Program-made: the position numbers and the translations under genes
Source of the DNA: Chlamydiales bacterium
Lineage (GTDB): Bacteria > Chlamydiota > Chlamydiia > Chlamydiales > JACKPQ01
DNA length: 64,000 nt
Direction: 5' to 3'
Assembly: GCA_024233435.1 (NCBI GenBank)
Contig: JACKPQ010000002.1
Location: 320,286 to 384,285 of the forward strand
Notes under the pieces: generated by a model
Seen by the model: only the letters and a program-made list of their open reading frames with translations
What the model was told of the DNA's origin: nothing
Database searches by the model: none
Shown: piece after piece, positions 13,327-34,462 of the stretch
How the letters are laid out: each line of letters starts with the position of its first letter
Numbering within the stretch: the stretch's first letter is position 1

Positions 13327-13396
13327 CCCGACTTGTCACCCTATTCTTGCGTAAGATGTTTCAGCAAAACACGTAATCTGCGGCGCTTTTCTCCTC

Positions 13397-13418
13397 GCTA
13401 AGGTGGATCCACCTTAGC
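13397..13418. repeat. 22-bp perfect palindrome GCTAAGGTGGATCCACCTTAGC
   Basis: Read directly. It has 11-bp arms and no spacer, lies 71 nt downstream of the rsbU stop, and is followed by TTGTATCTT. It could be a terminator hairpin or a dimeric-protein operator. Confidence 0.5.
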
Positions 13419-13573
13419 TTGTATCTTGATCCCTTCGCTTACCCCCTCTGGCAAAATAGATAGCTAATTCGGGCTATTAATACAGACTTAATATTAAACT
13501 ACCAAAACTTTATTTTTGATTTTTATTTCTTTTAATATTATATAAATCAATATATGGACCAGGAGGACAAAAA

Positions 13574-16500
13574 ATGATAGAAAGAGCAATATTATTCATC
13601 GTCGTCGTTGCCAGCCTTTCCAACAAGGTTTGGGCTCAGACTTGGAATGCCGGAAGCGGCGCATGGAATGTTCCTGCAAATTGGACTCCTGCCGTTATCC
13701 CTAATGGAGCAATAGATGTCACGTTCCCTGAGAATAGCCCTGGGGCCACTTCAACTGTTACAATTCCAGGGGCATATTCTATTCGCAATATGACTTTTAC
13801 TTCAACAACACAAGCCTACATTCTATCTGGAGGAACCCTGTCTGCTACTCCATTAGCTCTGGGTGGAATTAGTGTATCCGTTGGTTCTCCTGCTCATGTT
13901 TTAGATACAAATTTTTCTTTTATCACGACTAATCCTTTTACGATTGACCAGGACTCGACAAATGATTTAACTATTTCTGGGTCAATCGCTGGATCGGTTG
14001 GTATATCGAAGACTGGGACTGGAACTCTTGTATTCTCTGGTGCGACCCCAAGTGTGAATAGTGGTCTTTTTACGATTAATGCAGGACAGGTCACGTTGGA
14101 TAAAACGGCGGGTGTTCAAGCTGTTGGAGGTAATATAACGGTCAATGCGGGGATTTTATTTTGGAACCAATCAGAGCAAATGGCCGACACATCAACTCTG
14201 AGCATAAGTAACGCGTCAACAGTTATTGATCTCAACGGTAATACGGAAACAGTTGGAGCGTTAACAGTTGCAGCAACAGGTGCATATGCTCTTAATGGGA
14301 CTTTGAACTTAGCTGGCGCAGGGACTGTCCTAAGTGTTGCTACATTTAGCCCGACTCTAACTGGTCAGATTAATTTGATTTCTGGAGCTGGGGGTAATGT
14401 TTCAAAAACTGGAGCGGGAACGCTTGGTCTACAGAATGTCGCAGTTCAAAATGGAGCGCACGGCTTTGCTGTTACGACCGGAACTATTGATATCTCTGGT
14501 AAAATCAGCGGTAATGGGGGGATTGTTAAGTCGGGGACTGGCACACTGACTTTTACAGGAACGGAAGTCAATGATTATGATGGTGATACAGTAGTTACTG
14601 CAGGGACTTTGAATCTCAATCATACAGCAGGAGTAGCAATTACAAATGATTGTTTTATTAGCGGAGGTGTTCTGCTTCTTGGCTCAGGCAATCAAATTGC
14701 CGATACTGCGAATGTAACTGTCACATCCGGTTCGTTCAACATGAATTCGATGCCGGAAACGATTAATAGCCTGATATTAGATGGAGGTACTCTCATCAAT
14801 AATGGTGCAGGTTTGACGCTGAATTCTACAGGAACAGCCTTGTCTTTGAGAAACTCATCAATACCTGGACAGATCAATTTAACGGGTGCAACAGGTGGCA
14901 ATGTCATCTTTACTGATACGGGCGGAAACACTGGGACGTTGGCTAACGTCGATTTAGGTTCAGCCAACCGCATCTTTACTGTTGAAGATGTTCCTGCTGC
15001 AGCTGACCTCAATATTACGGGTGTGGTGAGTGGAGCTGGTGGGCTGACTAAAATGGGGTTTGGGCTTTTGCAGTATAGCTCAAATAACTCGAATAGTTAC
15101 ACGGGATTGACGACGGTTTCTGAAGGTACACTTTTATTGATCAAAACAGCGCCTTTTGTTGCTGTCCAAGGCGATATGCTTATCAACGGAGGTACCCTGC
15201 GATTAGGTAGGACAAATCAAATAGCCGATACTTCAAATGTGAAAATCGAGAGCGGAACGTTCGATTTAAATAACTTTAATGAAACTGTGGGTAGTTTGAA
15301 TTATTTGGGGGGATCTTTAATTCAGGGCAGTGCCGTCTTATCCTTGAGTGGAACAGGAACAGCGTTAACCATGAGGGATACTGTGGTTAACGGCACAGTG
15401 AGTTTGACAGGTGCATCAGGAGGTGGAGTTGTTTTTGATAGTAGCAATGGTGGAATGGCTTTTATCAATAATATCTTGCTTGGCAATGTTTCACGGACGT
15501 TTACGGTTGGTGGAGGAAATGACTCAAATGTCAAGATGGCGATATTAAATAGCTCTGGCACTGGAGGAGCTTTAATCAAAGATGGCCCAGGGATTCTAGA
15601 ACTTATTGGCCTTAATACATATACAATTGATAGCGCAAGAGTTGTCAATGGAACCTTAGCTGTCCAAGGGAGTCTTAACGCTCCGGCGCTAATTGTAGAA
15701 CCTGAAGGGGTAGTCAAGGGTTGCGGCACGATCATGGCGGCTGGAACTATTAATGGTACACTAAAGCCGGGTAATTCTATTGGAACGATCAATCTTGTTG
15801 GTGACCAAGTTTTCGGGTCGACCTTTGTGCTGGAAAACGAAATTAATCAAACTGAAACTGATTTAGTTAATATTACGGGAATGCTAACGATTGATCCCGG
15901 AGCGGCTGTTTCAGTTATTCCCCTTATATCAAACTTTACTGTCCCTACTACATATACGATCATACAGACAACTGCAGGTGTTTCAGGGACTTTTTCATCA
16001 GTGAATAACCCTTCTCTTTTTTACTCAAGTTCTCTGATCTACAATCCATTAACGGTTCAATTAACTCTCGACTCGATAGGGTTTTCTCAAATAGTTACAG
16101 CTGGCAATGCGGGCGTGGTAGCCAATTATTTAGACAGTCTCAATATCCAGCCTGGAAGTGATCTAGCAGCGGTTTTCAACGCCTTGCGTCAACTAACAAC
16201 TCAAGAAGCGCTTGAAAATGCCCTTTTTCAGTTACAACCAAGTCCGCTGAAGGGATTAGCGCTTTCTCAAGAAAACAATGCCTTTCAAATTGAGTCTTAT
16301 ATATTGGAGCGGACAAGGCCTAAATGCTGTGTTGATAACCAAAGAGCGAATCTTTGGGTTTTATTTGCTGGAGATCAATACAATCAAAATTCTATTCAAG
16401 AAGAAAAGCCTTTTCAAACGGCTTCTGGGCATGCCTTAATAGGTATTGATCGATATGTTAATGACAGTGCACTTATCGGTATTGCCGGGGGCTATACTTA

Positions 16501-17170
16501 CTCAGATGTGAATTGGGAAAAAATTAAGGACAAGGCGACCATTAATAATGGTACTTTAGCTTTGTATGGTCACGTGAAGACGGATTATATATTTGTCGAT
16601 GGTGCGATTCTTGGAGCATACAATAACTATTGTGAAACACGGAAAGTGCAGTTTTCATCTATTGACCGTACAGTCAAAGGGAACCCACAAGGAGGTCAAA
16701 TACTCACAAGCTTAAGCATTGGCAGCTCATTTTCACATCACAATCTAAATATCAGCCCTTTTTTATCAGGAAAATTTATGTATTTAGGGATGGGAAGCTT
16801 TAAGGAAAGTGGCGGTCAAAGTCTTGATCTAGAAGTAAGAAGCAGTGGGTACTCGCTTTTCCGTGGAGAGCTGGGCTTTAATTTTAATCATTGTTATAAT
16901 TTCCCCAATTTTATTATGGCGGCTGACTTAGATTTAGCATATATTCGAGAACAGCGATTTATAGGAACAAATTTCGACTCAAAGTTTGTTGACTATCCCT
17001 ACTTTACCGTAAAGGGAATGAATCCTTCGCGTAGTGCTTTTTCTCCCGATTTCAATCTCTCAATTTTGTCATGTGAGCGGAGAAAAAGTTTGATGGTTGG
17101 CTATCATGCTGAAATCGGTGGGCGCTACTTCGAACAAAATCTCTATCTTGAGGGAAGTTTTCAGTTCTAA
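13574..17170 (+). CDS. Classical (type Va) autotransporter outer membrane protein
   Basis: 1198 aa. A strong SD (AGGAGG, 13561-13566) precedes a signal peptide (VVVASLSNKVWAQT). The long passenger is made of G/T/N-rich repeats of the form GTGTLxxxG...N.Y.G.T.V..GTL (autotransporter-associated beta-strand repeat type). The ~280-aa C-terminal beta-barrel domain ends in ...EGSFQF, with a terminal Phe. Confidence 0.85.
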   Translation: MIERAILFIVVVASLSNKVWAQTWNAGSGAWNVPANWTPAVIPNGAIDVTFPENSPGATSTVTIPGAYSIRNMTFTSTTQAYILSGGTLSATPLALGGISVSVGSPAHVLDTNFSFITTNPFTIDQDSTNDLTISGSIAGSVGISKTGTGTLVFSGATPSVNSGLFTINAGQVTLDKTAGVQAVGGNITVNAGILFWNQSEQMADTSTLSISNASTVIDLNGNTETVGALTVAATGAYALNGTLNLAGAGTVLSVATFSPTLTGQINLISGAGGNVSKTGAGTLGLQNVAVQNGAHGFAVTTGTIDISGKISGNGGIVKSGTGTLTFTGTEVNDYDGDTVVTAGTLNLNHTAGVAITNDCFISGGVLLLGSGNQIADTANVTVTSGSFNMNSMPETINSLILDGGTLINNGAGLTLNSTGTALSLRNSSIPGQINLTGATGGNVIFTDTGGNTGTLANVDLGSANRIFTVEDVPAAADLNITGVVSGAGGLTKMGFGLLQYSSNNSNSYTGLTTVSEGTLLLIKTAPFVAVQGDMLINGGTLRLGRTNQIADTSNVKIESGTFDLNNFNETVGSLNYLGGSLIQGSAVLSLSGTGTALTMRDTVVNGTVSLTGASGGGVVFDSSNGGMAFINNILLGNVSRTFTVGGGNDSNVKMAILNSSGTGGALIKDGPGILELIGLNTYTIDSARVVNGTLAVQGSLNAPALIVEPEGVVKGCGTIMAAGTINGTLKPGNSIGTINLVGDQVFGSTFVLENEINQTETDLVNITGMLTIDPGAAVSVIPLISNFTVPTTYTIIQTTAGVSGTFSSVNNPSLFYSSSLIYNPLTVQLTLDSIGFSQIVTAGNAGVVANYLDSLNIQPGSDLAAVFNALRQLTTQEALENALFQLQPSPLKGLALSQENNAFQIESYILERTRPKCCVDNQRANLWVLFAGDQYNQNSIQEEKPFQTASGHALIGIDRYVNDSALIGIAGGYTYSDVNWEKIKDKATINNGTLALYGHVKTDYIFVDGAILGAYNNYCETRKVQFSSIDRTVKGNPQGGQILTSLSIGSSFSHHNLNISPFLSGKFMYLGMGSFKESGGQSLDLEVRSSGYSLFRGELGFNFNHCYNFPNFIMAADLDLAYIREQRFIGTNFDSKFVDYPYFTVKGMNPSRSAFSPDFNLSILSCERRKSLMVGYHAEIGGRYFEQNLYLEGSFQF

Positions 17171-17192
17171 CCAAAGTTCTGGGTTTATATCA

Positions 17193-18431
17193 CTAACCTT
17201 TAGGCCATAAGGGTGTTTCTTGCAAACGTTTGATGATGAGCTTTGGATCGAACAGCTGCTCGTTGACTGAGAGCTTTTCTCCCTCTTGTAGGAGGAGGCC
17301 CATCTCTTTACCTGGTTTTATACCAACCTCTTCAAGGTCTTGAGCTTTTAGAATGGGTTTGCGCGAACGAATCCTCTCAATGCACTCTTTCAATCGCTTC
17401 TGACGCTTTTGGTGGATGTCTACAAAAGTTGCTTGGCTTTCAGGATCAAGCTTAAGCGCAGCAAGTTGAAAAGAAATAGAAAAATTGGGTTCAGCGTAGG
17501 TCTTTGACCATTCATAATCATCGAGTTGAGTGTCAATGTAAAGCTGCTTTACATGAGCGTGGTAAGCCTCGACAAAGGCTTTAACTGAGTTGGAAACTTT
17601 GAAGTGATCACAAAGCTTTAGCTTTTCTTCTAGTGAGCTGTTTGGAAATAACTCGAGTAGGCCCGCAATCATTGGCGCATCGATGGGGAAATGGGGGATG
17701 TGCTGGAGTCGCTGGTGGATTGTTTCAATATCCGTGTTCCCAAGTTCTGGAAGAATGACTTGCAGGAGCCCAAGGCGGTGCATGGTAATCAGAGCGATCT
17801 CAAAGTTTGGATAGCGAGCCATTTTTTCAAGCTCCTGCCACAGGCGCTCAACAGCGACGGCATTTAGAAGCTCAGGGGAATGATCTATAATGGCTTGCAG
17901 TGTTGCGCTTTCAATCACAAAGTGAAAACGCGCAGCATAGCGTACGGCGCGCACCATCCGCAGGCGGTCCTCGGCAAAACGATCATGGGGGTTGCCGATT
18001 GCACGTATGACGCCTTCGATGATATCACGTTTCCCATCGACGTAATCATATAGCACATCTGCGAATGGGTCGTAGAACATGCCATTGATGGTGAAATCGC
18101 GTCTTTGAGCATCCTCTTCAGGGCATGCTGGATCGATTCCAACGGGGCGGCGGCCATCGATATAGGCGCGATCGCTTCGGAAGGTCGCCACTTCGAAGGC
18201 ATGCTCTTGAATCACCACAATCACAACGCCAAAATTGACGCCAACCGGGATGGTTTTTTCAAAGAGCTTTGCGACCTCATCAGGCTTGGCAGTCGTTGCG
18301 ATGTCAATATCATCGGAGGGGATTTTCATGAGATGGTCCCTCACCCAGCCACCAGCAAAGTAGGCTGTGTGGCCCGCATCGACAAGTTTTTTTACAACGG
18401 CTTTAGCCGCCTCTAAATGAGCCTTTGACAT
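17193..18431 (-). CDS. cca: CCA-adding tRNA nucleotidyltransferase / poly(A) polymerase family
   Basis: 412 aa with motifs YFAGGWVRD, DDIDIAT and RDFTINGM. Confidence 0.88.
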   Translation of the reverse strand: MSKAHLEAAKAVVKKLVDAGHTAYFAGGWVRDHLMKIPSDDIDIATTAKPDEVAKLFEKTIPVGVNFGVVIVVIQEHAFEVATFRSDRAYIDGRRPVGIDPACPEEDAQRRDFTINGMFYDPFADVLYDYVDGKRDIIEGVIRAIGNPHDRFAEDRLRMVRAVRYAARFHFVIESATLQAIIDHSPELLNAVAVERLWQELEKMARYPNFEIALITMHRLGLLQVILPELGNTDIETIHQRLQHIPHFPIDAPMIAGLLELFPNSSLEEKLKLCDHFKVSNSVKAFVEAYHAHVKQLYIDTQLDDYEWSKTYAEPNFSISFQLAALKLDPESQATFVDIHQKRQKRLKECIERIRSRKPILKAQDLEEVGIKPGKEMGLLLQEGEKLSVNEQLFDPKLIIKRLQETPLWPKG

Positions 18432-19426: not shown

Positions 19427-19867
19427 ATGAAGAACTGCTTTTTATTCGTGATAGTATCGGCTCTTTGCATAAAAGCGCATGCAGTAGAGAGGCTTGTTGA
19501 GGGTGATCGCCAAAAAATCGAGCATATGATTAAGCCGCTTGCTTCGTGGTCTCTTATTCGGCTTGGAATCAATCGCAAAGAAATTGAAAGGCGGGGTGAG
19601 GCTACATCGGGAATTCCGGTCATGCAGGCTCTTAGCTATTTATTTTCTGTCGACGGGTGTCGTGCTGACATGGAAGTGGTAAGAAAAAGCTCTTTAAAAT
19701 GGAATAGTTTGGCTAAAGGCTATGCAGATCGCTTGGAGCATGAACACTCAATCGGTGCACTATTGCCAGTGATTGATGACTTTGCAAAAGAGCTTGGTGC
19801 CGACCCAAGTCTTTTGCGCTCATTAGTTGAAAAGGGCGATTTTGTCGGGTTGTTTAACGCTCTTTAA
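19427..19867 (+). CDS. Hypothetical secreted protein, paralogue B
   Basis: 146 aa starting 3 nt after the stop of paralogue A, with a signal peptide (FLFVIVSALCIKAHA). It is collinear with paralogue A (DRLEHEHS...LPVIDDFAKELGADP). Confidence 0.6.
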   Translation: MKNCFLFVIVSALCIKAHAVERLVEGDRQKIEHMIKPLASWSLIRLGINRKEIERRGEATSGIPVMQALSYLFSVDGCRADMEVVRKSSLKWNSLAKGYADRLEHEHSIGALLPVIDDFAKELGADPSLLRSLVEKGDFVGLFNAL

Positions 19868-21136
19868 GAAAGTCTCAGGTGTAACAATTAATGCGTTTTT
19901 CTTAGCTTGCAGATAACGCGCGTTCCCTTTTTCCCAAGCGGGTATTCCTTTTAGCAACTGCTCAAGAGACGTTGCGGCATTTGCTTTGGTTTCAGAGTGG
20001 ATCATGATCTGCCCTTCCATCAGCGCAAGCAATTCCATTGAGGTAATTCCACCAGATCGAGTGATGGAGGCATCTGCGCGCGCAAAAAGTGGAGCAATCA
20101 CAGCATCATCTTGGTATGTTAATGGAACAATGGATAGGTTTTTTGGAAACTCCGGCAGACTGATAATGGATTGACATAGGCGCCCAAGAAGGCTGCTTGC
20201 TAGGTTGTGCTGCTTGCGGCAGAAGACAAATAAAACATCATGCAGATCATTGGGGTGATTTTGTTTAAATCGGATGTATTCTTGGACATAATTGAGGGTT
20301 GCTTTTTCAGCTGGACGTGAGCCTAACATAAGCAATGCAAGGTGGGCATGTGCAGGGATTGTGATGTCAAGGTATGGTGGGCAGTAGTCACACTCAATGG
20401 TGCCTTTGCTCAGAACGGGCTTAATGCATTCCCAGGTTTCGGTTGTTGGAATACGAGCAGCAATGGAGAGTTCTTTGTGTTTTGGCAGTGGCTCATCGAA
20501 GCTTTTAAAGGTTGGGCGTAGCGGGAAATCTGCATAGATAATATTTGCAAGTGGTAAGTTGGTATGATTTTTCCAAAAAAGCTCCTCACTAGCATGCGAT
20601 TCTAGTAGGGGCTCTGTTGTATATAAATGGATGAGTGAGCGTTCTTTTTCGCTTAAGTTTTTTATTGGTTTAAAGTAGTGCGTGGCTTTATCGGTTGGGA
20701 GATCAACGAGCACTTTTTCATACCGAATTTGTCGGTTTTGGATCGCTTGAGCAAGCCGCACTGCTTTGATGATCGCTGATGTGCAAAGGGGTTGTGTGTC
20801 AATGATGTAATCGATATGCTCTTTTAAGATAAGAAAAAAGAGGCGAATGAAAACTGGAACGCGAAAAAGGACATCGAATTTTGATTGCCACCACACGAGT
20901 ATTTTTTGAATGCTAACTTTGCCTTTTGCTTGAGCAAAATTCCAAAACCCAGCAAATAAGCTTCCAGGGTGTTTACCAATCCAGTCAAGCAAGAGATCGC
21001 GCTGAATCACTGCGATATGGGGCTGGTGTGTGTGCAGTTCATGGGCTTTAGCAGCAGTTGCTTGTAAATGGCCTCCGCCCCCTGAACATGTGATTAACAG
21101 ACACTTCTTGTATGGGAGCTTTTCTGCCACAGGCAC
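19823..21136 (-). CDS. GT-B glycosyltransferase, MGDG-synthase/MurG-like (GT28-type), putative
   Basis: 437 aa with an N-terminal CSGGGGHLQATAAKA motif (G-rich loop plus His) and a C-terminal ITRSGGITSMELLA motif, both typical of GT28-type enzymes. The GTG start overlaps the rho stop by 1 nt. Confidence 0.5.
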   Translation of the reverse strand: MPVAEKLPYKKCLLITCSGGGGHLQATAAKAHELHTHQPHIAVIQRDLLLDWIGKHPGSLFAGFWNFAQAKGKVSIQKILVWWQSKFDVLFRVPVFIRLFFLILKEHIDYIIDTQPLCTSAIIKAVRLAQAIQNRQIRYEKVLVDLPTDKATHYFKPIKNLSEKERSLIHLYTTEPLLESHASEELFWKNHTNLPLANIIYADFPLRPTFKSFDEPLPKHKELSIAARIPTTETWECIKPVLSKGTIECDYCPPYLDITIPAHAHLALLMLGSRPAEKATLNYVQEYIRFKQNHPNDLHDVLFVFCRKQHNLASSLLGRLCQSIISLPEFPKNLSIVPLTYQDDAVIAPLFARADASITRSGGITSMELLALMEGQIMIHSETKANAATSLEQLLKGIPAWEKGNARYLQAKKNALIVTPETFLKSVKQPDKIALFN

Positions 21137-26818: not shown

Positions 26819-26879
26819 GCTGTTCCTTATAGTTGCTGTAGAAACCGTATACTAGCTCATGTCTAATTGATGCACAAGC

Positions 26880-28901
26880 TTAAGGCGGTGTGCACCCTGA
26901 GGAGTAAGTGACTGTACCAGCAGTGACAACAGGCCCCGTGTTACTAGTTGTGACAGTTGCCATGGAGTCAACCATGTTGAGGTCTTCAAGGCTGAACGTT
27001 GTCGCGGTGTTGCCAAGAAGCTCAAGACAACCAAAAGGAGCACTTAAAATAGATTCGACGCGGATAGCGTTTGTCAGTGCCACGTTGTTTGTTATGCTTG
27101 CATACTTAGTATAAAAAGGCGGAACACCTATGAATTGATGGAAAATACCGTTTGCTACAAGAGAAGAGCTTACCGTATTGTTCGAGATAACAATGCTCGA
27201 CAAACCGGCCTGTTCCGTAACAGCAATTGCTTCATTTCCTGCAGTTACCATATTTCCATCAATGATAATGGTATTTAGTGAGGGGTTACTTTGAATAGCG
27301 AATATTCGAATGCCGGTGTTGATCGGGGAAGTGATGGTATTGTTTTGTATTAAAGTGGCAGAAGTGTTGACGTTGTTAACTTCGATACTAGCTCCACCAA
27401 ACCCAGTCAGATCGGTATCTACAATTGTGTTATTGCTCACGTCTATTATACCATTAACATTAACAGTTGTGATAAATGGCATGCCCGTTGTGAAAGAATT
27501 GTTTTGGATGAATGTATCTTCTAAGCCAAATAGATTGAAGTAGGAAAAGCCGGTTGATAGCCCTGTTGTGACAGACGAATTTACCAAAGTAAATGCGGTG
27601 CTTCCTATCGAAGTTTGTGCGCCAAAAAAGCCACCTACAAACTCAAAGGCGTTAACAGATACTGCCCCTCCTTGCAATTCAAAAATAGTCCCAAACATAT
27701 CCACGTGGTCGAGCGCCGGTGCAATGGCTGTTTGTGCTGGGAAAACGATCCCATCTACAGTATGGGCGATGCCTGATCCTAAGAAGAACAAGTCGTGAGG
27801 CACAGTGACAAGGGCACTTGGCCCTGGCGTTGTGTAATTAATGCCAGTTCCATAGACGTATATGCAATCGCCAGCAACTGAAGCGTCAACAGCTTCCTGA
27901 ATTGTTTGAAAGGGCATTTCAAATGTGCCATCACCGCCAGCTGGAGCAGTATTGTCAACGAAGATACAATTGATCGTTGTGGACCCTGAACCTGATCCAG
28001 TAGTAAGAGCGCTGATCCTACTTGTGTTACAAACAGGGATAATTTCTTGGCGGATGACCCCTTGCGTCATGCGGCGTTGCATTTTGGCAGACGCAATGCA
28101 CTCTTGCAGGTACCAATTCCTCCACCGTTTACCTCTAGTGCGAATAGTATTAGGTCCTAAGGGAAAGCTCAATGATGCGTAACCATTAGCTCGGGTTTTG
28201 TATTCGCGGTCATAGCTGATTTCTCCACCAATAGAGATGCCATCGAAGATCAAAACACCCAACCGTGCCATACCGCCCCAGGAAGCGCCGCAGCGCTTGC
28301 CAAGCAAGTGTTTTTCAAATAGATAGTAAGGGCCAATTGATAAATAGGGATCGACTACCAGTCCAGGAATAGGAATTCCAAATTCTGCTCCGATATTTGG
28401 AAGAGCTGTTGTTGCTTTTTGTTTAATGTAAAGGGTATTGCCTGAAGCATAGGCAAATCGACGAGGAGTTTTACCGGTATCGTTACTTATTGGGATATAG
28501 CCGTTGAGTCTGAAGTCGACGTAAGGGTTTAACACTTCAAGACCAGGGCCTATTTGGTGCGCCCTTAGATTTCTTGCATCGCGAAAGTCATAGTAGCAGT
28601 TCGCTCCAAATGCCCACTGACCGGTCGCAAATCGCGATCCAATGCCAACGTTTGATGCTGTGCGCCCATCATTAAACATATGCCCTCGCATATCGAGAAA
28701 TGGCTGGAAGTTTCTTTGCCAATTTGGCGTTAAGAATCCAGAGACGGTTCCATATCCCTGGCGATAGCCAACGCCTTCAGGCGCGCGATATCTCATTGAT
28801 GCGTGTGAGGGGGTTCCGCGAATGCATGAGGTTTGCGCAAAACCCTGCACCAGGAACATAAAAGTGATGATCCAAAATTTCTTATCCACTGCTTCATACA
28901 T
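26880..28901 (-). CDS. Surface protein, copy 1: N-terminal inverse-autotransporter-like beta-barrel plus C-terminal parallel beta-helix passenger
   Basis: The track ORF is 687 aa (to 28943). The likelier start is the Met at 28901, which gives a signal peptide MYEAVDKKFWIITFMFLVQGFAQT. The barrel pattern is FLDMRGHMFNDGRTASNVGIGSRF..WAFGANCYYDFRD...GLE...VDFRLNGYIP. The passenger has a GDGTFEMPFQTIQEAV..A..GDCIYV motif and repeated NNTI/NNS beta-helix turns. Confidence 0.75.
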   Translation of the reverse strand: MYEAVDKKFWIITFMFLVQGFAQTSCIRGTPSHASMRYRAPEGVGYRQGYGTVSGFLTPNWQRNFQPFLDMRGHMFNDGRTASNVGIGSRFATGQWAFGANCYYDFRDARNLRAHQIGPGLEVLNPYVDFRLNGYIPISNDTGKTPRRFAYASGNTLYIKQKATTALPNIGAEFGIPIPGLVVDPYLSIGPYYLFEKHLLGKRCGASWGGMARLGVLIFDGISIGGEISYDREYKTRANGYASLSFPLGPNTIRTRGKRWRNWYLQECIASAKMQRRMTQGVIRQEIIPVCNTSRISALTTGSGSGSTTINCIFVDNTAPAGGDGTFEMPFQTIQEAVDASVAGDCIYVYGTGINYTTPGPSALVTVPHDLFFLGSGIAHTVDGIVFPAQTAIAPALDHVDMFGTIFELQGGAVSVNAFEFVGGFFGAQTSIGSTAFTLVNSSVTTGLSTGFSYFNLFGLEDTFIQNNSFTTGMPFITTVNVNGIIDVSNNTIVDTDLTGFGGASIEVNNVNTSATLIQNNTITSPINTGIRIFAIQSNPSLNTIIIDGNMVTAGNEAIAVTEQAGLSSIVISNNTVSSSLVANGIFHQFIGVPPFYTKYASITNNVALTNAIRVESILSAPFGCLELLGNTATTFSLEDLNMVDSMATVTTSNTGPVVTAGTVTYSSGCTPP

Positions 28902-28959
28902 ATATATATAATTCTTTTCCGTAAAGAATAATTTTAGGGTCAATTCGGTATGGCCAGCT

Positions 28960-29298
28960 TCACAGTCGATTAAGTTCTTTTAAGAGATCGCCAGTAGACG
29001 AATACAATTTTCCGGTCCACTCAGAAATATTGCGAGATTGCGTGCTGAAGTTAATCCCAATGACAGCAAGCTGACGATTTTGATGGGAGTATTTGCGGTT
29101 AGCATCAGCTGTTTTGGTGCAGCTTAAATTGTCTATAATGGGTTTATCATACTCATCGACTAGCACGACGACTTCAGCTATTTGAGAAAGCTTTTTCACC
29201 AAATTAGCAAGGCCTTCTTGTAATGTAGGTGTATCGATTGAAACTCCATAATTTAATGCAATTTCTGACAGTGATCTTTCGATGCTTTTTTCTAATTG
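28960..29298 (-). pseudogene. 3' fragment (last 112 codons) of the AAA-ATPase-like gene, duplicated with unit 1
   Basis: Identical to the C-terminal 112 aa of ORF 33830-34462 (QLEKSIERSL...KELNRL). The track ORF 28960-29472 is a chimera that reads 58 alt-frame codons out of the preceding surface-protein gene. Confidence 0.8.
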
Positions 29299-29308
29299 AT
29301 GCACAAGC

Positions 29309-31336
29309 TTAAGGCGGTGTGCACCCTGAGGAGTAAGTGACTGTACCAGCAGTGACAACAGGCCCCGTGTTACTAGTTGTGACAGTTGCCATGGAGTCAA
29401 CCATGTTGAGGTCTTCAAGGCTGAACGTTGTCGCGGTGTTGCCAAGAAGCTCAAGACAACCAAAAGGAGCACTTACAATAGATTCGACGCGGATAGCGTT
29501 TGTCAGTGCCACGTTGTTTGTTATGCTTGCATACTTATTATAAAAAGGCGGAACAAATGGATTGGTGAATTGATGGAAAATACCGTTTGCTACAAGAGAA
29601 GAGCTTACCGTATTGTTCGAGATAACAATGCTCGACAAACCGGACTGTTCCGTAACAGCAATTGCTTCATTTCCTGCAGTTACCATATTTCCATCAATGA
29701 TAATGGTATTTAGTGAGGGGTTACTTTGAATAGCGAATATTCGAATGCCGGTGTTGATCGGGGAAGTGATGGTATTGTTTTGTATTAAAGTGGCAGAAGT
29801 GTTGACGTTGTTAACTTCGATACTAGCTCCACCAAACCCAGTCAGATCGGTATCTACAATTGTGTTATTGCTCACGTCTATTATACCATTAACATTAACA
29901 GTTGTGATAAATGGCATGCCCGTTGTGAAAGAATTGTTTTGGATGAATGTATCTTCTAAGCCAAATAGATTGAAGTAGGAAAAGCCGGTTGATAGCCCTG
30001 TTGTGACAGACGAATTTACCAAAGTAAATGCGGTGCTTCCTATCGAAGTTTGTGCGCCAAAAAAGCCACCTACAAACTCAAAGGCGTTAACAGATACTGC
30101 CCCTCCTTGCAATTCAAAAATAGTCCCAAACATATCCACGTGGTCGAGCGCCGGTGCAATGGCTGTTTGTGCTGGGAAAACGATCCCATCTACAGTATGG
30201 GCGATGCCTGATCCTAAGAAGAACAAGTCGTGAGGCACAGTGACAAGGGCACTTGGCCCTGGCGTTGTGTAATTAATGCCAGTTCCATAGACGTATATGC
30301 AATCGCCAGCAACTGAAGCGTCAACAGCTTCCTGAATTGTTTGAAAGGGCATTTCAAATGTGCCATCACCGCCAGCTGGAGCAGTATTGTCAACGAAGAT
30401 ACAATTGATCGTTGTGGACCCTGAACCTGATCCAGTAGTAAGAGCGCTGATCCTACTTGTGTTACAAACAGGGATAATTTCTTGGCGGATGACCCCTTGC
30501 GTCATGCGGCGTTGCATTTTGGCAGACGCAATGCACTCTTGCAGGTACCAATTCCTCCACCGTTTACCTCTAGTGCGAATAGTATTAGGTCCTAAGGGAA
30601 AGCTCAATGATGCGTAACCATTAGCTCGGGTTTTGTATTCGCGGTCATAGCTGATTTCTCCACCAATAGAGATGCCATCGAAGATCAAAACACCCAACCG
30701 TGCCATACCGCCCCAGGAAGCGCCGCAGCGCTTGCCAAGCAAGTGTTTTTCAAATAGATAGTAAGGGCCAATTGATAAATAGGGATCGACTACCAGTCCA
30801 GGAATAGGAATTCCAAATTCTGCTCCGATATTTGGAAGAGCTGTTGTTGCTTTTTGTTTAATGTAAAGGGTATTGCCTGAAGCATAGGCAAATCGACGAG
30901 GAGTTTTACCGGTATCGTTACTTATTGGGATATAGCCGTTGAGTCTGAAGTCGACGTAAGGGTTTAACACTTCAAGACCAGGGCCTATTTGGTGCGCCCT
31001 TAGATTTCTTGCATCGCGAAAGTCATAGTAGCAGTTCGCTCCAAATGCCCACTGACCGGTCGCAAATCGCGATCCAATGCCAACGTTTGATGCTGTGCGC
31101 CCATCATTAAACATATGCCCTCGCATATCGAGAAATGGCTGGAAGTTTCTTTGCCAATTTGGCGTTAAGAATCCAGAGACGGTTCCATATCCCTGGCGAT
31201 AGCCAACGCCTTCAGGCGCGCGATATCTCATTGATGCGTGTGAGGGGGTTCCGCGAATGCATGAGGTTTGCGCAAAACCCTGCACCAGGAACATAAAAGT
31301 GATGATCCAAAATTTCTTATCCACTGCTTCATACAT
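29309..31336 (-). CDS. Surface protein, copy 2 (inverse-autotransporter-like barrel plus beta-helix passenger)
   Basis: The 689-aa track ORF runs to 31378, with a probable start at 31336. It is identical to copy 3 and differs from copy 1 only near the C-terminus. Confidence 0.75.
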   Translation of the reverse strand: MYEAVDKKFWIITFMFLVQGFAQTSCIRGTPSHASMRYRAPEGVGYRQGYGTVSGFLTPNWQRNFQPFLDMRGHMFNDGRTASNVGIGSRFATGQWAFGANCYYDFRDARNLRAHQIGPGLEVLNPYVDFRLNGYIPISNDTGKTPRRFAYASGNTLYIKQKATTALPNIGAEFGIPIPGLVVDPYLSIGPYYLFEKHLLGKRCGASWGGMARLGVLIFDGISIGGEISYDREYKTRANGYASLSFPLGPNTIRTRGKRWRNWYLQECIASAKMQRRMTQGVIRQEIIPVCNTSRISALTTGSGSGSTTINCIFVDNTAPAGGDGTFEMPFQTIQEAVDASVAGDCIYVYGTGINYTTPGPSALVTVPHDLFFLGSGIAHTVDGIVFPAQTAIAPALDHVDMFGTIFELQGGAVSVNAFEFVGGFFGAQTSIGSTAFTLVNSSVTTGLSTGFSYFNLFGLEDTFIQNNSFTTGMPFITTVNVNGIIDVSNNTIVDTDLTGFGGASIEVNNVNTSATLIQNNTITSPINTGIRIFAIQSNPSLNTIIIDGNMVTAGNEAIAVTEQSGLSSIVISNNTVSSSLVANGIFHQFTNPFVPPFYNKYASITNNVALTNAIRVESIVSAPFGCLELLGNTATTFSLEDLNMVDSMATVTTSNTGPVVTAGTVTYSSGCTPP

Positions 31337-31394
31337 ATATATATAATTCTTTTCCGTAAAGAATAATTTTAGGGTCAATTCGGTATGGCCAGCT

Positions 31395-31733
31395 TCACAG
31401 TCGATTAAGTTCTTTTAAGAGATCGCCAGTAGACGAATACAATTTTCCGGTCCACTCAGAAATATTGCGAGATTGCGTGCTGAAGTTAATCCCAATGACA
31501 GCAAGCTGACGATTTTGATGGGAGTATTTGCGGTTAGCATCAGCTGTTTTGGTGCAGCTTAAATTGTCTATAATGGGTTTATCATACTCATCGACTAGCA
31601 CGACGACTTCAGCTATTTGAGAAAGCTTTTTCACCAAATTAGCAAGGCCTTCTTGTAATGTAGGTGTATCGATTGAAACTCCATAATTTAATGCAATTTC
31701 TGACAGTGATCTTTCGATGCTTTTTTCTAATTG
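31395..31733 (-). pseudogene. 3' fragment of the AAA-ATPase-like gene, duplicated with unit 2
   Basis: Same 112 codons as 28960-29298 and the same chimeric 170-aa track ORF (31395-31907). Confidence 0.8.
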
Positions 31734-31743
31734 ATGCACAAGC

Positions 31744-33771
31744 TTAAGGCGGTGTGCACCCTGAGGAGTAAGTGACTGTACCAGCAGTGACAACAGGCCC
31801 CGTGTTACTAGTTGTGACAGTTGCCATGGAGTCAACCATGTTGAGGTCTTCAAGGCTGAACGTTGTCGCGGTGTTGCCAAGAAGCTCAAGACAACCAAAA
31901 GGAGCACTTACAATAGATTCGACGCGGATAGCGTTTGTCAGTGCCACGTTGTTTGTTATGCTTGCATACTTATTATAAAAAGGCGGAACAAATGGATTGG
32001 TGAATTGATGGAAAATACCGTTTGCTACAAGAGAAGAGCTTACCGTATTGTTCGAGATAACAATGCTCGACAAACCGGACTGTTCCGTAACAGCAATTGC
32101 TTCATTTCCTGCAGTTACCATATTTCCATCAATGATAATGGTATTTAGTGAGGGGTTACTTTGAATAGCGAATATTCGAATGCCGGTGTTGATCGGGGAA
32201 GTGATGGTATTGTTTTGTATTAAAGTGGCAGAAGTGTTGACGTTGTTAACTTCGATACTAGCTCCACCAAACCCAGTCAGATCGGTATCTACAATTGTGT
32301 TATTGCTCACGTCTATTATACCATTAACATTAACAGTTGTGATAAATGGCATGCCCGTTGTGAAAGAATTGTTTTGGATGAATGTATCTTCTAAGCCAAA
32401 TAGATTGAAGTAGGAAAAGCCGGTTGATAGCCCTGTTGTGACAGACGAATTTACCAAAGTAAATGCGGTGCTTCCTATCGAAGTTTGTGCGCCAAAAAAG
32501 CCACCTACAAACTCAAAGGCGTTAACAGATACTGCCCCTCCTTGCAATTCAAAAATAGTCCCAAACATATCCACGTGGTCGAGCGCCGGTGCAATGGCTG
32601 TTTGTGCTGGGAAAACGATCCCATCTACAGTATGGGCGATGCCTGATCCTAAGAAGAACAAGTCGTGAGGCACAGTGACAAGGGCACTTGGCCCTGGCGT
32701 TGTGTAATTAATGCCAGTTCCATAGACGTATATGCAATCGCCAGCAACTGAAGCGTCAACAGCTTCCTGAATTGTTTGAAAGGGCATTTCAAATGTGCCA
32801 TCACCGCCAGCTGGAGCAGTATTGTCAACGAAGATACAATTGATCGTTGTGGACCCTGAACCTGATCCAGTAGTAAGAGCGCTGATCCTACTTGTGTTAC
32901 AAACAGGGATAATTTCTTGGCGGATGACCCCTTGCGTCATGCGGCGTTGCATTTTGGCAGACGCAATGCACTCTTGCAGGTACCAATTCCTCCACCGTTT
33001 ACCTCTAGTGCGAATAGTATTAGGTCCTAAGGGAAAGCTCAATGATGCGTAACCATTAGCTCGGGTTTTGTATTCGCGGTCATAGCTGATTTCTCCACCA
33101 ATAGAGATGCCATCGAAGATCAAAACACCCAACCGTGCCATACCGCCCCAGGAAGCGCCGCAGCGCTTGCCAAGCAAGTGTTTTTCAAATAGATAGTAAG
33201 GGCCAATTGATAAATAGGGATCGACTACCAGTCCAGGAATAGGAATTCCAAATTCTGCTCCGATATTTGGAAGAGCTGTTGTTGCTTTTTGTTTAATGTA
33301 AAGGGTATTGCCTGAAGCATAGGCAAATCGACGAGGAGTTTTACCGGTATCGTTACTTATTGGGATATAGCCGTTGAGTCTGAAGTCGACGTAAGGGTTT
33401 AACACTTCAAGACCAGGGCCTATTTGGTGCGCCCTTAGATTTCTTGCATCGCGAAAGTCATAGTAGCAGTTCGCTCCAAATGCCCACTGACCGGTCGCAA
33501 ATCGCGATCCAATGCCAACGTTTGATGCTGTGCGCCCATCATTAAACATATGCCCTCGCATATCGAGAAATGGCTGGAAGTTTCTTTGCCAATTTGGCGT
33601 TAAGAATCCAGAGACGGTTCCATATCCCTGGCGATAGCCAACGCCTTCAGGCGCGCGATATCTCATTGATGCGTGTGAGGGGGTTCCGCGAATGCATGAG
33701 GTTTGCGCAAAACCCTGCACCAGGAACATAAAAGTGATGATCCAAAATTTCTTATCCACTGCTTCATACAT
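31744..33771 (-). CDS. Surface protein, copy 3 (inverse-autotransporter-like barrel plus beta-helix passenger)
   Basis: The 689-aa track ORF runs to 33813, with a probable start at 33771. Its translation is identical to copy 2. Confidence 0.75.
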   Translation of the reverse strand: MYEAVDKKFWIITFMFLVQGFAQTSCIRGTPSHASMRYRAPEGVGYRQGYGTVSGFLTPNWQRNFQPFLDMRGHMFNDGRTASNVGIGSRFATGQWAFGANCYYDFRDARNLRAHQIGPGLEVLNPYVDFRLNGYIPISNDTGKTPRRFAYASGNTLYIKQKATTALPNIGAEFGIPIPGLVVDPYLSIGPYYLFEKHLLGKRCGASWGGMARLGVLIFDGISIGGEISYDREYKTRANGYASLSFPLGPNTIRTRGKRWRNWYLQECIASAKMQRRMTQGVIRQEIIPVCNTSRISALTTGSGSGSTTINCIFVDNTAPAGGDGTFEMPFQTIQEAVDASVAGDCIYVYGTGINYTTPGPSALVTVPHDLFFLGSGIAHTVDGIVFPAQTAIAPALDHVDMFGTIFELQGGAVSVNAFEFVGGFFGAQTSIGSTAFTLVNSSVTTGLSTGFSYFNLFGLEDTFIQNNSFTTGMPFITTVNVNGIIDVSNNTIVDTDLTGFGGASIEVNNVNTSATLIQNNTITSPINTGIRIFAIQSNPSLNTIIIDGNMVTAGNEAIAVTEQSGLSSIVISNNTVSSSLVANGIFHQFTNPFVPPFYNKYASITNNVALTNAIRVESIVSAPFGCLELLGNTATTFSLEDLNMVDSMATVTTSNTGPVVTAGTVTYSSGCTPP

Positions 33772-33829
33772 ATATATATAATTCTTTTCCGTAAAGAATA
33801 ATTTTAGGGTCAATTCGGTATGGCCAGCT

Positions 33830-34462
33830 TCACAGTCGATTAAGTTCTTTTAAGAGATCGCCAGTAGACGAATACAATTTTCCGGTCCACTCAGAAATAT
33901 TGCGAGATTGCGTGCTGAAGTTAATCCCAATGACAGCAAGCTGACGATTTTGATGGGAGTATTTGCGGTTAGCATCAGCTGTTTTGGTGCAGCTTAAATT
34001 GTCTATAATGGGTTTATCATACTCATCGACTAGCACGACGACTTCAGCTATTTGAGAAAGCTTTTTCACCAAATTAGCAAGGCCTTCTTGTAATGTAGGT
34101 GTATCGATTGAAACTCCATAATTTAATGCAATTTCTGACAGTGATCTTTCGATGCTTTTTTCTAATTGCTCGGTTGTCTTATTAGGAATTTGAGTGAAAT
34201 CAAAATGAATGATAGGATGCTCAGTCCACGTGTAATCACTTTTACTAATGGAGCAATCTTTGAATAAAGCTTGATTTCCCTTCAAGATCTCTTCAAGTGT
34301 GCTAATAAAAAGGGACTTCCCAAACCGCCTTGGTCTTGACATGAAGTAATACTTTCCATTATCGATAAGCCGCTTTGCATCTGCGGTTTTATCGACGTAG
34401 GCATAGCCCCCTTCCAGGATCACACGGATAGACTGGATGCCGATGGGTAACTTTTTTATCAT
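33830..34462 (-). CDS. AAA-ATPase-like / PD-(D/E)XK family protein, internally shortened (possible pseudogene)
   Basis: 210 aa. The N-terminus KLPIGIQSIRVILEGGYAYVDKTADAKRLI..GKYYFMSRPRRFGKSLFISTLE is the hallmark of the 'predicted AAA-ATPase' family. A Walker-B-like VLVDEYD is followed almost immediately by the family's extreme C-terminal motif (LAVIGINFSTQSRNISEW). Family members are usually more than 450 aa. Confidence 0.65.
   Translation of the reverse strand: MIKKLPIGIQSIRVILEGGYAYVDKTADAKRLIDNGKYYFMSRPRRFGKSLFISTLEEILKGNQALFKDCSISKSDYTWTEHPIIHFDFTQIPNKTTEQLEKSIERSLSEIALNYGVSIDTPTLQEGLANLVKKLSQIAEVVVLVDEYDKPIIDNLSCTKTADANRKYSHQNRQLAVIGINFSTQSRNISEWTGKLYSSTGDLLKELNRL

What the first reader, a model, noticed from the sequence alone, without database searches (positions are those of the whole stretch)
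26880..28943. The amplified gene looks like an inverse (type Ve) autotransporter with a beta-helix passenger instead of Ig-like domains
After a signal peptide (MYEAVDKKFWIITFMFLVQGFAQT), residues ~25-265 show the pattern I associate with the intimin/invasin-type N-terminal barrel: F.P.LD.RGH.F.DGR.A.N.G.G.R......G.N.YYD.R .... G.G.E ... D.R.NGY.P. A basic linker follows (RTRGKRWRNWYLQEC...). The C-terminal ~400 aa has a GDGTxxxPFxTIQxAVxxAxxGDxIxV start and repeated NNTI/NNS turns typical of right-handed parallel beta-helices. The protein does not end in an aromatic residue (..SSGCTPP), consistent with the barrel not being C-terminal. Known inverse autotransporters usually display Ig-like/BIG arrays, so a beta-helix passenger, in a Chlamydiota genome and in three copies, would be an uncommon architecture. 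The same window also encodes a classical type Va autotransporter (13574-17170).
Basis: partly seen in the sequence, partly recalled or inferred. Interest (0 to 1): 0.6.

Follow-up and report, generated by a model that had tools for sequence, protein, structure and literature searches.

The report
Chlamydial inverse autotransporter with beta-helix passenger
The triplicated gene encodes an outer-membrane protein with an intimin/invasin-type barrel at its front end and a beta-helix, probably displayed on the cell surface, at its back end; this design is real and untested in the lab, but it was described in 2016, is already named in the public annotation, and is common in environmental chlamydiae.

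Summary
A 673-aa protein (ATG at 28901; ORF 26880-28943, minus strand) is present in three tandem copies. Each has a signal peptide, an N-terminal barrel, a basic helical linker and a C-terminal beta-helix.

- Pfam IAT_beta scores 43.3 bits against a cut-off of 22.3.
- An AlphaFold2 model (pLDDT 84.5) has the invasin and intimin beta-domains as its top three PDB matches (TM 0.73-0.75). Type Va barrels and porins reach TM 0.5 at most.
- All 50 best matches of a separate passenger-only model (pLDDT 71.5) are right-handed beta-helices, but these matches are weak.

It is not rare or new:
- Heinz et al. 2016 reported invasin_beta plus pectin-lyase-fold proteins.
- NCBI already names these three genes "inverse autotransporter beta domain-containing protein".
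- A profile search finds 3,566 clusters (50% identity) at E<=1e-30, and every named strong hit comes from Chlamydiota MAGs.

New details:
- The 2,435-bp repeat unit is bounded by an 8-bp microhomology, and its junction is present in an independent metagenome.
- A sister genome has one syntenic copy.
- All variation between copies and strains lies in passenger codons 410-619, as mosaic patches.
- No charged or catalytic-type residue is conserved in the passenger, so I favour a variable adhesin over an enzyme.

Surface export and binding are inferred, not shown.

The parts
26880..28901 (-). Copy 1 of the inverse-autotransporter gene (673 aa plus stop). The mechanical ORF extends to a TTG at 28943.
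   Evidence: NCBI MCP5492373.1
28836..28901 (-). Signal peptide, residues 1-22 (n-region DKK, hydrophobic core FWIITFMFLV, likely cleavage GFA|QT)
   Evidence: Sequence and hydropathy; AF2 helix 7-19; homologs share the ..LFA|Q..C pattern. No signal-peptide predictor was available.
28152..28814 (-). Intimin/invasin-type beta-barrel, residues about 30-250. The last strand ends ..YASLSF, an internal aromatic end.
   Evidence: Pfam IAT_beta; AF2 pLDDT above 90; Foldseek top hits 4e1t, 4e1s, 5g26
28017..28151 (-). Linker, residues 251-295: basic helices 258-263 and 266-278, then the near-invariant R284-x-E-I-I-P289 segment
   Evidence: Residues 281-300 have pLDDT 91-92 when modelled with the barrel and about 40 without it.
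26883..28016 (-). Right-handed beta-helix passenger, residues 296-673 (conserved N-terminal cap GDGTFxxPFxTIxxA..GDxIYV, variable body, C-terminal cap ending GCTPP)
27027..27701 (-). Hypervariable body of the passenger (codons 401-625). All differences between copies and strains fall inside it.
29309..31336 (-). Copy 2 (675 aa plus stop)
   Evidence: MCP5492375.1; DNA identical to JGI contig L006
31744..33771 (-). Copy 3 (675 aa plus stop), DNA identical to copy 2
   Evidence: MCP5492377.1
26862..34168 (.). Tandem repeat of three units (2,429 + 2,435 + 2,435 bp, plus the 8-bp terminal repeat). TCTAATTG sits at 26862-26869, 29291-29298, 31726-31733 and 34161-34168.
33830..34462 (-). Decayed AAA-ATPase_like gene (210 aa). 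Its last ~340 nt are the upstream part of each repeat unit, with copies at 28960-29290 and 31395-31725.

Best explanation
Each copy encodes a type Ve (inverse) autotransporter. Proposed steps: (1) Sec export using the N-terminal signal peptide. (2) BAM-dependent insertion of the N-terminal intimin/invasin-type barrel; its last strand ends in the aromatic SLSF. (3) The basic helical linker and the near-invariant RxEIIP segment occupy the barrel lumen. (4) The C-terminal beta-helix is threaded out and stays attached on the cell surface. Because export in type Ve runs N-to-C, the conserved N-terminal cap of the helix (GDGTFxxPFxTIxxA..GDxIYV) would emerge first and seed folding, and the rest would stack on it. 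The exposed helix body most likely works as a variable, non-enzymatic adhesin or host-contact protein. This would make it a functional counterpart of the type Va Pmp adhesins of Chlamydiaceae. The gene was amplified to three copies by illegitimate recombination at an 8-bp microhomology followed by unequal crossing-over. The copies then exchange short sequence patches in the variable body. What is shown here: the domain order, barrel homology, beta-helix fold class, family size, repeat anatomy and variation pattern. What is inferred: the membrane topology, export, adhesin role, folding direction and expression of all three copies.
For: Barrel:
- Pfam IAT_beta 43.3 bits against GA 22.3.
- Invasin 4e1t by sequence, E=4e-5.
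- AF2 pLDDT 84.5, with the barrel above 90.
- Foldseek ranks 1-3 are invasin and intimin, TM 0.73-0.75, clearly above type Va barrels and porins.

Linker:
- Helices 258-278, then RxEIIP, which is nearly invariant in 43 diverse members.
- Residues 281-300 are confident only when modelled with the barrel (pLDDT 91-92 vs about 40).
- Cys204 (barrel hairpin tip) and Cys291 (just after EIIP) are present in exactly the same 11 of 28 homologs, which suggests a barrel-linker disulfide.

Passenger:
- All top 50 PDB matches of the passenger-only model are beta-helices.
- Pfam Beta_helix, NosD, Pel9A-like or DUF1565 in homologs.

Adhesin rather than enzyme:
- No conserved charged or catalytic-type residue in the passenger beyond the cap and an Asn ladder.
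- Only 3 Lys+Arg in 378 residues.
- The helix body shows 8-21% identity across the family, against 30-50% for the barrel and the cap.
- Between close strains there are 0 differences in codons 1-400 and 626-673, and 38 nt differences in codons 401-625.

Amplification:
- TCTAATTG at both ends and at both internal junctions.
- The junction is 100% identical in an independent JGI contig.
- The sister genome has a single syntenic copy.
- The variants are a mosaic of copy-1 and copy-2 states.

Precedent: Heinz et al. 2016.
Against: - No experiment or proteomic data bears on localisation, export or binding.
- Sequence-level homology to intimin/invasin covers only about 70 residues of the barrel. The rest rests on a predicted structure.
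I could not count strands geometrically (DSSP gives 13-14 elements in residues 33-247), nor verify that the linker lies in the lumen.
- Passenger matches are weak (E>=5e-3, TM 0.27-0.46), so only the fold class is established.
- dN/dS in the variable block is 0.68, not above 1, so positive selection is not demonstrated.
- No promoter signal rose above chance.
- The copy number in a MAG could be mis-assembled; only one junction type has independent support.
Confidence: 0.75

Rival explanations
1. The passenger is a surface-displayed carbohydrate-active enzyme (a PL9-like lyase or a glycosidase) rather than an adhesin.
For: The best passenger matches are the PL9 rhamnogalacturonan lyase 5olq, Pel9A 1ru4, the GH136 enzyme 6kqt and the lyase RbmB. 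Paralogs hit Pfam Pel9A-like_beta_helix. The A1 profile weakly hits polygalacturonase and xylosidase.
Against: The matches are weak (E>=5e-3, TM 0.46 at most) and simply reflect the generic beta-helix fold. No Asp, Glu, Lys, Arg or His is conserved in the passenger across 28 or 43 members. There are only 3 Lys+Arg in 378 residues, whereas (from my own knowledge) PL9 chemistry needs a basic catalytic residue and a Ca2+-binding acidic cluster. The helix body is the least conserved part of the protein.
Confidence: 0.12
2. The barrel is only a membrane anchor or pore, and the beta-helix stays in the periplasm, so this is not an autotransporter in function.
For: Export was not tested. Heinz et al. 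2016 argue that some family members (ZirT and SinH) may act as translocases for other proteins rather than for their own C-terminus.
Against: The barrel and linker superpose on intimin and invasin, whose passengers thread through the lumen. The RxEIIP segment is near-invariant. The helix body is hypervariable and mosaic, as expected for an exposed surface. No neighbouring gene that could be a secreted substrate was seen.
Confidence: 0.06
3. The three copies are an assembly artefact of strain variants in a metagenome bin, or are decaying duplicates, and have no biological role as an array.
For: The source is a MAG. Copies 2 and 3 are identical. The duplication drags along a pseudogene fragment. 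The sister genome has one copy.
Against: The unit-to-unit junction occurs with 100% identity in an independent JGI assembly that differs elsewhere by a 959-bp indel. All three ORFs are intact. Collapsing repeats is the usual assembly error, not expanding them (general knowledge).
Confidence: 0.07

Closest known systems
Intimin (EHEC/EPEC) and invasin (Yersinia), the type Ve inverse autotransporters; beta-domain structures 4E1S and 4E1T
   Same: Signal peptide, then an N-terminal barrel, then a helical linker, then a C-terminal passenger. Pfam IAT_beta is above its cut-off. The predicted barrel plus linker superposes on the full crystal chains at TM 0.73-0.75. Passenger divergence exceeds barrel divergence, as in intimin.
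   Different: The passenger is one continuous beta-helix instead of Big/Ig-like domains plus a C-type lectin. There is no LysM periplasmic domain: the barrel starts about 10 residues after the signal peptide. Sequence similarity is limited to about 70 barrel residues (12-15% identity in the structural alignment). The protein is rich in cysteines that are conserved within the family.
The 'invasin_beta + pectin lyase fold (IPR011050)' group noted by Heinz et al. 2016 (PMC4943183)
   Same: The same two-domain architecture. That paper also reports invasin_beta proteins in Chlamydiae.
   Different: That report is a network-level remark without structure, family size, taxonomy of the group or genomic behaviour. 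I could not confirm that their group is the chlamydial one, because no supplement is held.
Chlamydial polymorphic membrane proteins (Pmps) and pertactin, type Va autotransporters with beta-helix passengers
   Same: A beta-helix passenger on a 12-stranded-type barrel, a multigene family with paralogs and tandem copies, and a variable surface part. This resemblance is functional and comes from my own knowledge.
   Different: The domain order is opposite. There is no Pfam Autotransporter domain. The Pmp motifs are essentially absent (1 GGA[ILV], 4 FxxN). tblastn with the protein as query finds nothing in the window beyond its own three copies, so it has no similarity to the window's own type Va protein.
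PL9 / Pel9A-like and DUF1565 beta-helix proteins
   Same: The N-terminal cap motif GDGTxxxPFxTIxxA..GDxI and the right-handed beta-helix fold.
   Different: No conserved catalytic or Ca2+-binding residues. Pfam DUF1565 is below its cut-off (15.2 vs 20.3 bits).

Membership tests
Type Ve inverse autotransporter (IAT_beta / invasin_beta superfamily) | Match to the Pfam IAT_beta (PF11924) model above the gathering score | tested here: met
   43.3 bits against 22.3, E=4.5e-11, but only residues 91-159 of the 687-aa ORF align (profile positions 88-154 of 279). 37 of 43 sampled family members also match.
Type Ve inverse autotransporter (IAT_beta / invasin_beta superfamily) | Barrel fold equivalent to the 12-stranded intimin/invasin beta-domain | tested here: met
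   Foldseek ranks 1-3 are 4e1t, 4e1s and 5g26, E 1e-9 to 2e-8, TM (normalised to the target) 0.73-0.75 over 266-274 columns. The next hits (EspP, OmpG, BrkA) reach TM 0.5 at most. This rests on an AF2 model with barrel pLDDT above 90.
Type Ve inverse autotransporter (IAT_beta / invasin_beta superfamily) | Exactly 12 transmembrane strands | tested here: inconclusive
   DSSP lists 13-14 strand elements in residues 33-247, and some are probably kinked strands or loop hairpins.
Type Ve inverse autotransporter (IAT_beta / invasin_beta superfamily) | Inverted order: signal peptide, barrel at the N-terminus, passenger at the C-terminus | tested here: met
   Signal peptide 1-22, barrel about 30-250, linker 251-295, passenger 296-673.
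Type Ve inverse autotransporter (IAT_beta / invasin_beta superfamily) | Linker or helix that occupies the barrel lumen | tested here: inconclusive
   Helices 258-278 and the near-invariant RxEIIP follow the barrel. Residues 281-300 have pLDDT 91-92 with the barrel and about 40 without it. The position inside the lumen could not be inspected.
Type Ve inverse autotransporter (IAT_beta / invasin_beta superfamily) | Passenger exported to, and retained on, the cell surface | not testable with these tools
   Needs protease shaving, immunolabelling or outer-membrane proteomics.
Intimin/invasin subfamily proper | Passenger built of Big/Ig-like domains with a C-type lectin-like tip | tested here: not met
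   No Big or lectin Pfam hits. The passenger is a beta-helix. The protein is therefore a superfamily member, not an intimin or invasin.
Intimin/invasin subfamily proper | Periplasmic LysM domain (present in some members) | tested here: not met
   No LysM hit. The barrel begins about 10 residues after the signal-peptide cleavage site.
Right-handed parallel beta-helix (pectin lyase fold) passenger | Beta-helix fold by structure prediction and profile match | tested here: met
   Regular short strands across 290-666. All top 50 PDB hits of the passenger-only model are beta-helices, though weak. Beta_helix, NosD or Pel9A-like Pfam hits occur in homologs. The window protein itself has only a sub-threshold DUF1565 match.
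PL9 pectate/rhamnogalacturonan lyase | Conserved catalytic base and Ca2+-binding acidic residues | tested here: not met
   No conserved Asp, Glu, Lys, Arg or His in the passenger in alignments A1 and A3. Only 3 Lys+Arg in the passenger. Alignment of beta-helix coils is imperfect, so this is indicative only.
Chlamydial Pmp (type Va) | C-terminal Autotransporter barrel and repeated GGA(I/L/V) and FxxN motifs | tested here: not met
   The barrel is N-terminal and of IAT type. There are 1 GGA[ILV] and 4 FxxN motifs.

The most novel reading that the evidence does not exclude
This family is the environmental-chlamydia counterpart of the Pmp adhesins, built on the opposite secretion polarity. The beta-helix would be exported and folded N-to-C from a conserved N-terminal cap acting as an 'inverse autochaperone'. 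It would be stapled to the barrel by a disulfide (Cys204-Cys291). The tandem array would serve as a reservoir for short-patch gene conversion that varies the exposed helix body, giving surface or host-range variation.
Probability: 0.3. Interest if true: 0.55.

Novelty: new member of a known kind. Interest (0 to 1): 0.35.

Why it matters
Little is known about how environmental chlamydiae attach to their hosts, and many lack the large Pmp repertoires of Chlamydiaceae (my own knowledge). A family of thousands of inverse autotransporters with beta-helix passengers is an obvious adhesin candidate set; its named members all come from Chlamydiota MAGs. It is also a natural test of whether a beta-helix can be secreted and folded N-to-C through a type V barrel, the reverse of classical autotransporters. 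The triplicated, mosaic locus gives a concrete case for studying gene amplification and conversion in an obligate intracellular lineage. None of this overturns current views. The architecture was noted in 2016 and is annotated automatically.

Tried and rejected
- The genome-contig scan for relatives returned only an irrelevant Oscillospiraceae hit. The organism was identified instead by exact protein look-up.
- The profile search against PDB did not extend sequence homology beyond the ~70-residue barrel core.
- The promoter and terminator scan was no better than shuffled sequence.
- A diversity-generating retroelement was considered for the variable block and rejected. The substitutions are not adenine-specific and occur as clustered multi-nucleotide patches.
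- A lipoprotein signal was considered because of the Cys just after the signal peptide. I rejected it on sequence grounds: QTSC and QASC lack the canonical L-(A/S)-(G/A)-C lipobox (the lipobox consensus is from my own knowledge).
- Pmp-type motifs are absent.
- Names for representative-library proteins: none were held.
- The Fairman 2012 structure paper and the Heinz 2016 supplements are not held.
Full report
**1. Observation**

The ORF at 26880-28943 (minus strand, 687 aa from a TTG) exists. It is followed by two near-identical ORFs at 29309-31378 and 31744-33813.

- The probable start is the ATG at 28901 (673 aa). NCBI's annotation uses the GTG four codons later.
- The window's Rho, PolA and the three gene products are exact matches to consecutive accessions of an NCBI MAG named "Chlamydiales bacterium", on a 641,585-bp contig.
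- The three copies are already named there "inverse autotransporter beta domain-containing protein" (MCP5492373.1, MCP5492375.1, MCP5492377.1).
- The type Va autotransporter at 13574-17170 is confirmed.

**2. Barrel**

- Pfam IAT_beta matches above its gathering score (43.3 vs 22.3 bits), but over only about 70 residues.
- NCBIfam inverse-autotransporter models and invasin 4e1t hit the same core. A family profile did not extend it.
- An AlphaFold2 model built on 28 homologs has mean pLDDT 84.5 and pTM 0.73. It shows a signal-peptide helix (7-19), strands across 33-247 at pLDDT above 90, two helices (258-263, 266-278), then short regular strands to residue 666.
- In the Foldseek search against PDB, the first three hits are invasin 4e1t and intimin 4e1s/5g26. 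E-values are 1e-9 to 2e-8, target-normalised TM is 0.73-0.75, and the whole crystal chains are aligned.
- EspP, BrkA, NalP, OmpG and porins follow at E>=9e-5 and TM 0.5 at most.

I could not access coordinates, so the exact strand count (DSSP shows 13-14 elements) and the lumenal position of the linker remain unverified.

**3. Linker**

- Residues 251-295 carry 10 Lys+Arg in 45 residues.
- The basic helical part is poorly conserved. The following R284-x-E-I-I-P289 is nearly invariant in 43 diverse family members.
- Residues 281-300 are modelled at pLDDT 91-92 in the full-length protein, but at about 40 when the passenger is modelled without the barrel. This fits a segment whose conformation depends on barrel contacts.
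- Cys204 (tip of a barrel hairpin of variable length) and Cys291 (two residues after EIIP) occur in exactly the same 11 of 28 homologs. Cys312, Cys346 and Cys670 share another pattern, present in the same 13 of 28.
- This suggests disulfides, including a barrel-to-linker staple. The sequences are phylogenetically related, so the evidence is weak.

**4. Passenger**

- The passenger-only model (pLDDT 71.5) has only right-handed beta-helices among its top 50 PDB matches: the PL9 lyase 5olq, Pel9A, GH136, RbmB and phage tailspikes. E is 5e-3 or worse and TM is 0.27-0.46. The fold class is established; a specific family is not.
- The window protein has only a sub-threshold DUF1565 hit. Homologs carry Beta_helix, NosD, Pel9A-like_beta_helix or DUF1565.
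- Conserved positions in the passenger are confined to the N-terminal cap (FVxN, GxGTFxxP, A337, S341, Y348, G351, G353...) and an Asn ladder. No acidic, basic or His residue is conserved.
- The passenger has 3 Lys+Arg, 26 Asp+Glu, 86 Ser+Thr and 31 Asn in 378 residues.
- Family-level identity to the query is 30-50% in the barrel, 30-46% in the cap (residues 301-400), 8-21% in the body (401-625) and 21-29% in the C-terminal cap.

I read this as a non-enzymatic, exposed, fast-evolving binding surface on a conserved export and folding scaffold. The adhesin role is an inference.

**5. Family and precedent**

- A profile search of 1.84 billion cluster representatives gives 17,536 hits at E<=1e-3 and 3,566 at E<=1e-30.
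- Nearly all of the 150 best hits (E<=1e-140) cover barrel and passenger in one stretch. One exception, P0110, is a 416-aa protein matched only to profile position 346.
- Of 43 proteins scanned (42 family representatives plus the window protein), 37 hit IAT_beta and 14 hit Beta_helix.
- Every named strong homolog is from a Chlamydiales, Chlamydiia or Simkaniaceae MAG. NCBI labels them either "inverse autotransporter beta domain-containing" or "right-handed parallel beta-helix repeat-containing".
- Heinz et al. 2016 (PMC4943183) reported invasin_beta proteins in Chlamydiae, and a group combining invasin_beta with a pectin-lyase-fold C-terminal domain. They likened that group to pertactin.
- An earlier in-silico survey listed a chlamydial "outer membrane proteins/invasins" cluster (PMC2811131).
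- Reviews still describe type Ve passengers as Ig-like or lectin-like (PMC6555100).
- I found no experimental work on a beta-helix member.

The architecture is therefore known and common in sequence space, but uncharacterised.

**6. The amplification**

- The repeat spans 26862-34168 in three units of 2,429, 2,435 and 2,435 bp.
- Each unit holds the gene, 58 nt of intergenic sequence, and the last ~340 nt of a decayed AAA-ATPase_like gene. The only copy that retains the gene's 5' part is at 33830-34462.
- The octamer TCTAATTG lies at both outer boundaries and at both internal junctions. This is the footprint expected (from general knowledge) of an illegitimate, microhomology-mediated duplication followed by unequal crossing-over.
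- The junctions create 170-aa chimeric ORFs (28960-29472 and 31395-31907). These are by-products of the duplication.
- A JGI metagenome contig (L006) is 100% identical across copy 2 and the junction. It carries 959 bp more of the AAA-ATPase_like gene, so the junction is seen in an independent assembly.
- A related 1.59-Mb genome (about 80% nt identity, collinear over 27 kb) has a single copy between the same neighbours, sppA and the SDF transporter. It also has at least two more paralogs elsewhere.

**7. Variation**

- Copies 2 and 3 are identical. Copy 1 differs only at codons 565-621: three isolated nonsynonymous changes and one complex patch with a 6-nt indel. Nei-Gojobori path counting gives about 6 nonsynonymous and 1 synonymous step.
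- A strain variant (L005, ENA) shows 0 differences in codons 1-400 and 626-673. It has 38 nt differences in codons 401-625 (dS 0.078, dN 0.053, ratio 0.68).
- These differences come as clustered multi-nucleotide patches. They mix copy-1 and copy-2 states and are not adenine-biased.

This points to short-patch recombination or gene conversion in the exposed body, not a diversity-generating retroelement. It does not prove positive selection.

**8. Verdict**

The claim of rarity does not. This is a new member of a known but experimentally untouched kind, with a well-defined recent tandem amplification.

Interest is moderate to low for discovery value. It is higher as a candidate adhesin family and as a model for N-to-C beta-helix secretion.

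Noticed in passing
window 33830-34462 (-), fragments at 28960-29290 and 31395-31725; L006 2549-3507; L002 8885-9025: The AAA-ATPase_like (PF09820) gene upstream of the array is decaying in a different way in each lineage. The window has a 959-bp internal deletion relative to JGI contig L006. The sister genome keeps only a 46-aa remnant. All three window copies share the deletion, which implies homogenisation within the array or amplification after the deletion.
   Followed up: partly
window 13330-17198 (type Va gene at 13574-17170, +): The classical autotransporter gene (Autotransporter beta-domain plus PATR repeats) sits between the PolyA_pol and SpoIIE genes. These two genes are directly adjacent in the sister genome L002. 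The type Va gene is therefore a lineage-specific insertion, or a loss in the relative.
   Followed up: partly
window 28829-28901 and upstream; L002 9015-10057: The signal peptide and 5' flank of the gene are unrelated to those of the 80%-identical ortholog. The DNA alignment starts only at about codon 25, and signal-peptide identity is 21%. This suggests replacement of the 5' end.
   Followed up: no
window 26883-28016 (-), passenger: The composition is extreme: 3 Lys+Arg against 26 Asp+Glu, 86 Ser+Thr and 31 Asn in 378 residues. The adjacent 45-residue linker has 10 Lys+Arg.
   Followed up: partly
window residues Cys204/Cys291 and Cys312/Cys346/Cys670 of the 673-aa protein: These cysteines co-occur in identical sets of homologs (11 of 28 and 13 of 28). 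This hints at disulfides, which would fit the disulfide-cross-linked chlamydial envelope. Distances could not be checked in the model.
   Followed up: partly
L004 8001-10286 (+), 10368-12446 (+), 13550-15466 (-): In the sister genome, two further inverse-autotransporter/beta-helix paralogs flank a 692-aa F-box-domain protein, a eukaryote-like domain.
   Followed up: no
window 19823-21136 (-): A 437-aa ORF with no Pfam match is conserved in the sister genome (425 aa, also without a Pfam match). Its N-terminal CSGGGGH motif resembles GT28/MurG-type glycosyltransferases. That resemblance is from memory and was not tested.
   Followed up: no
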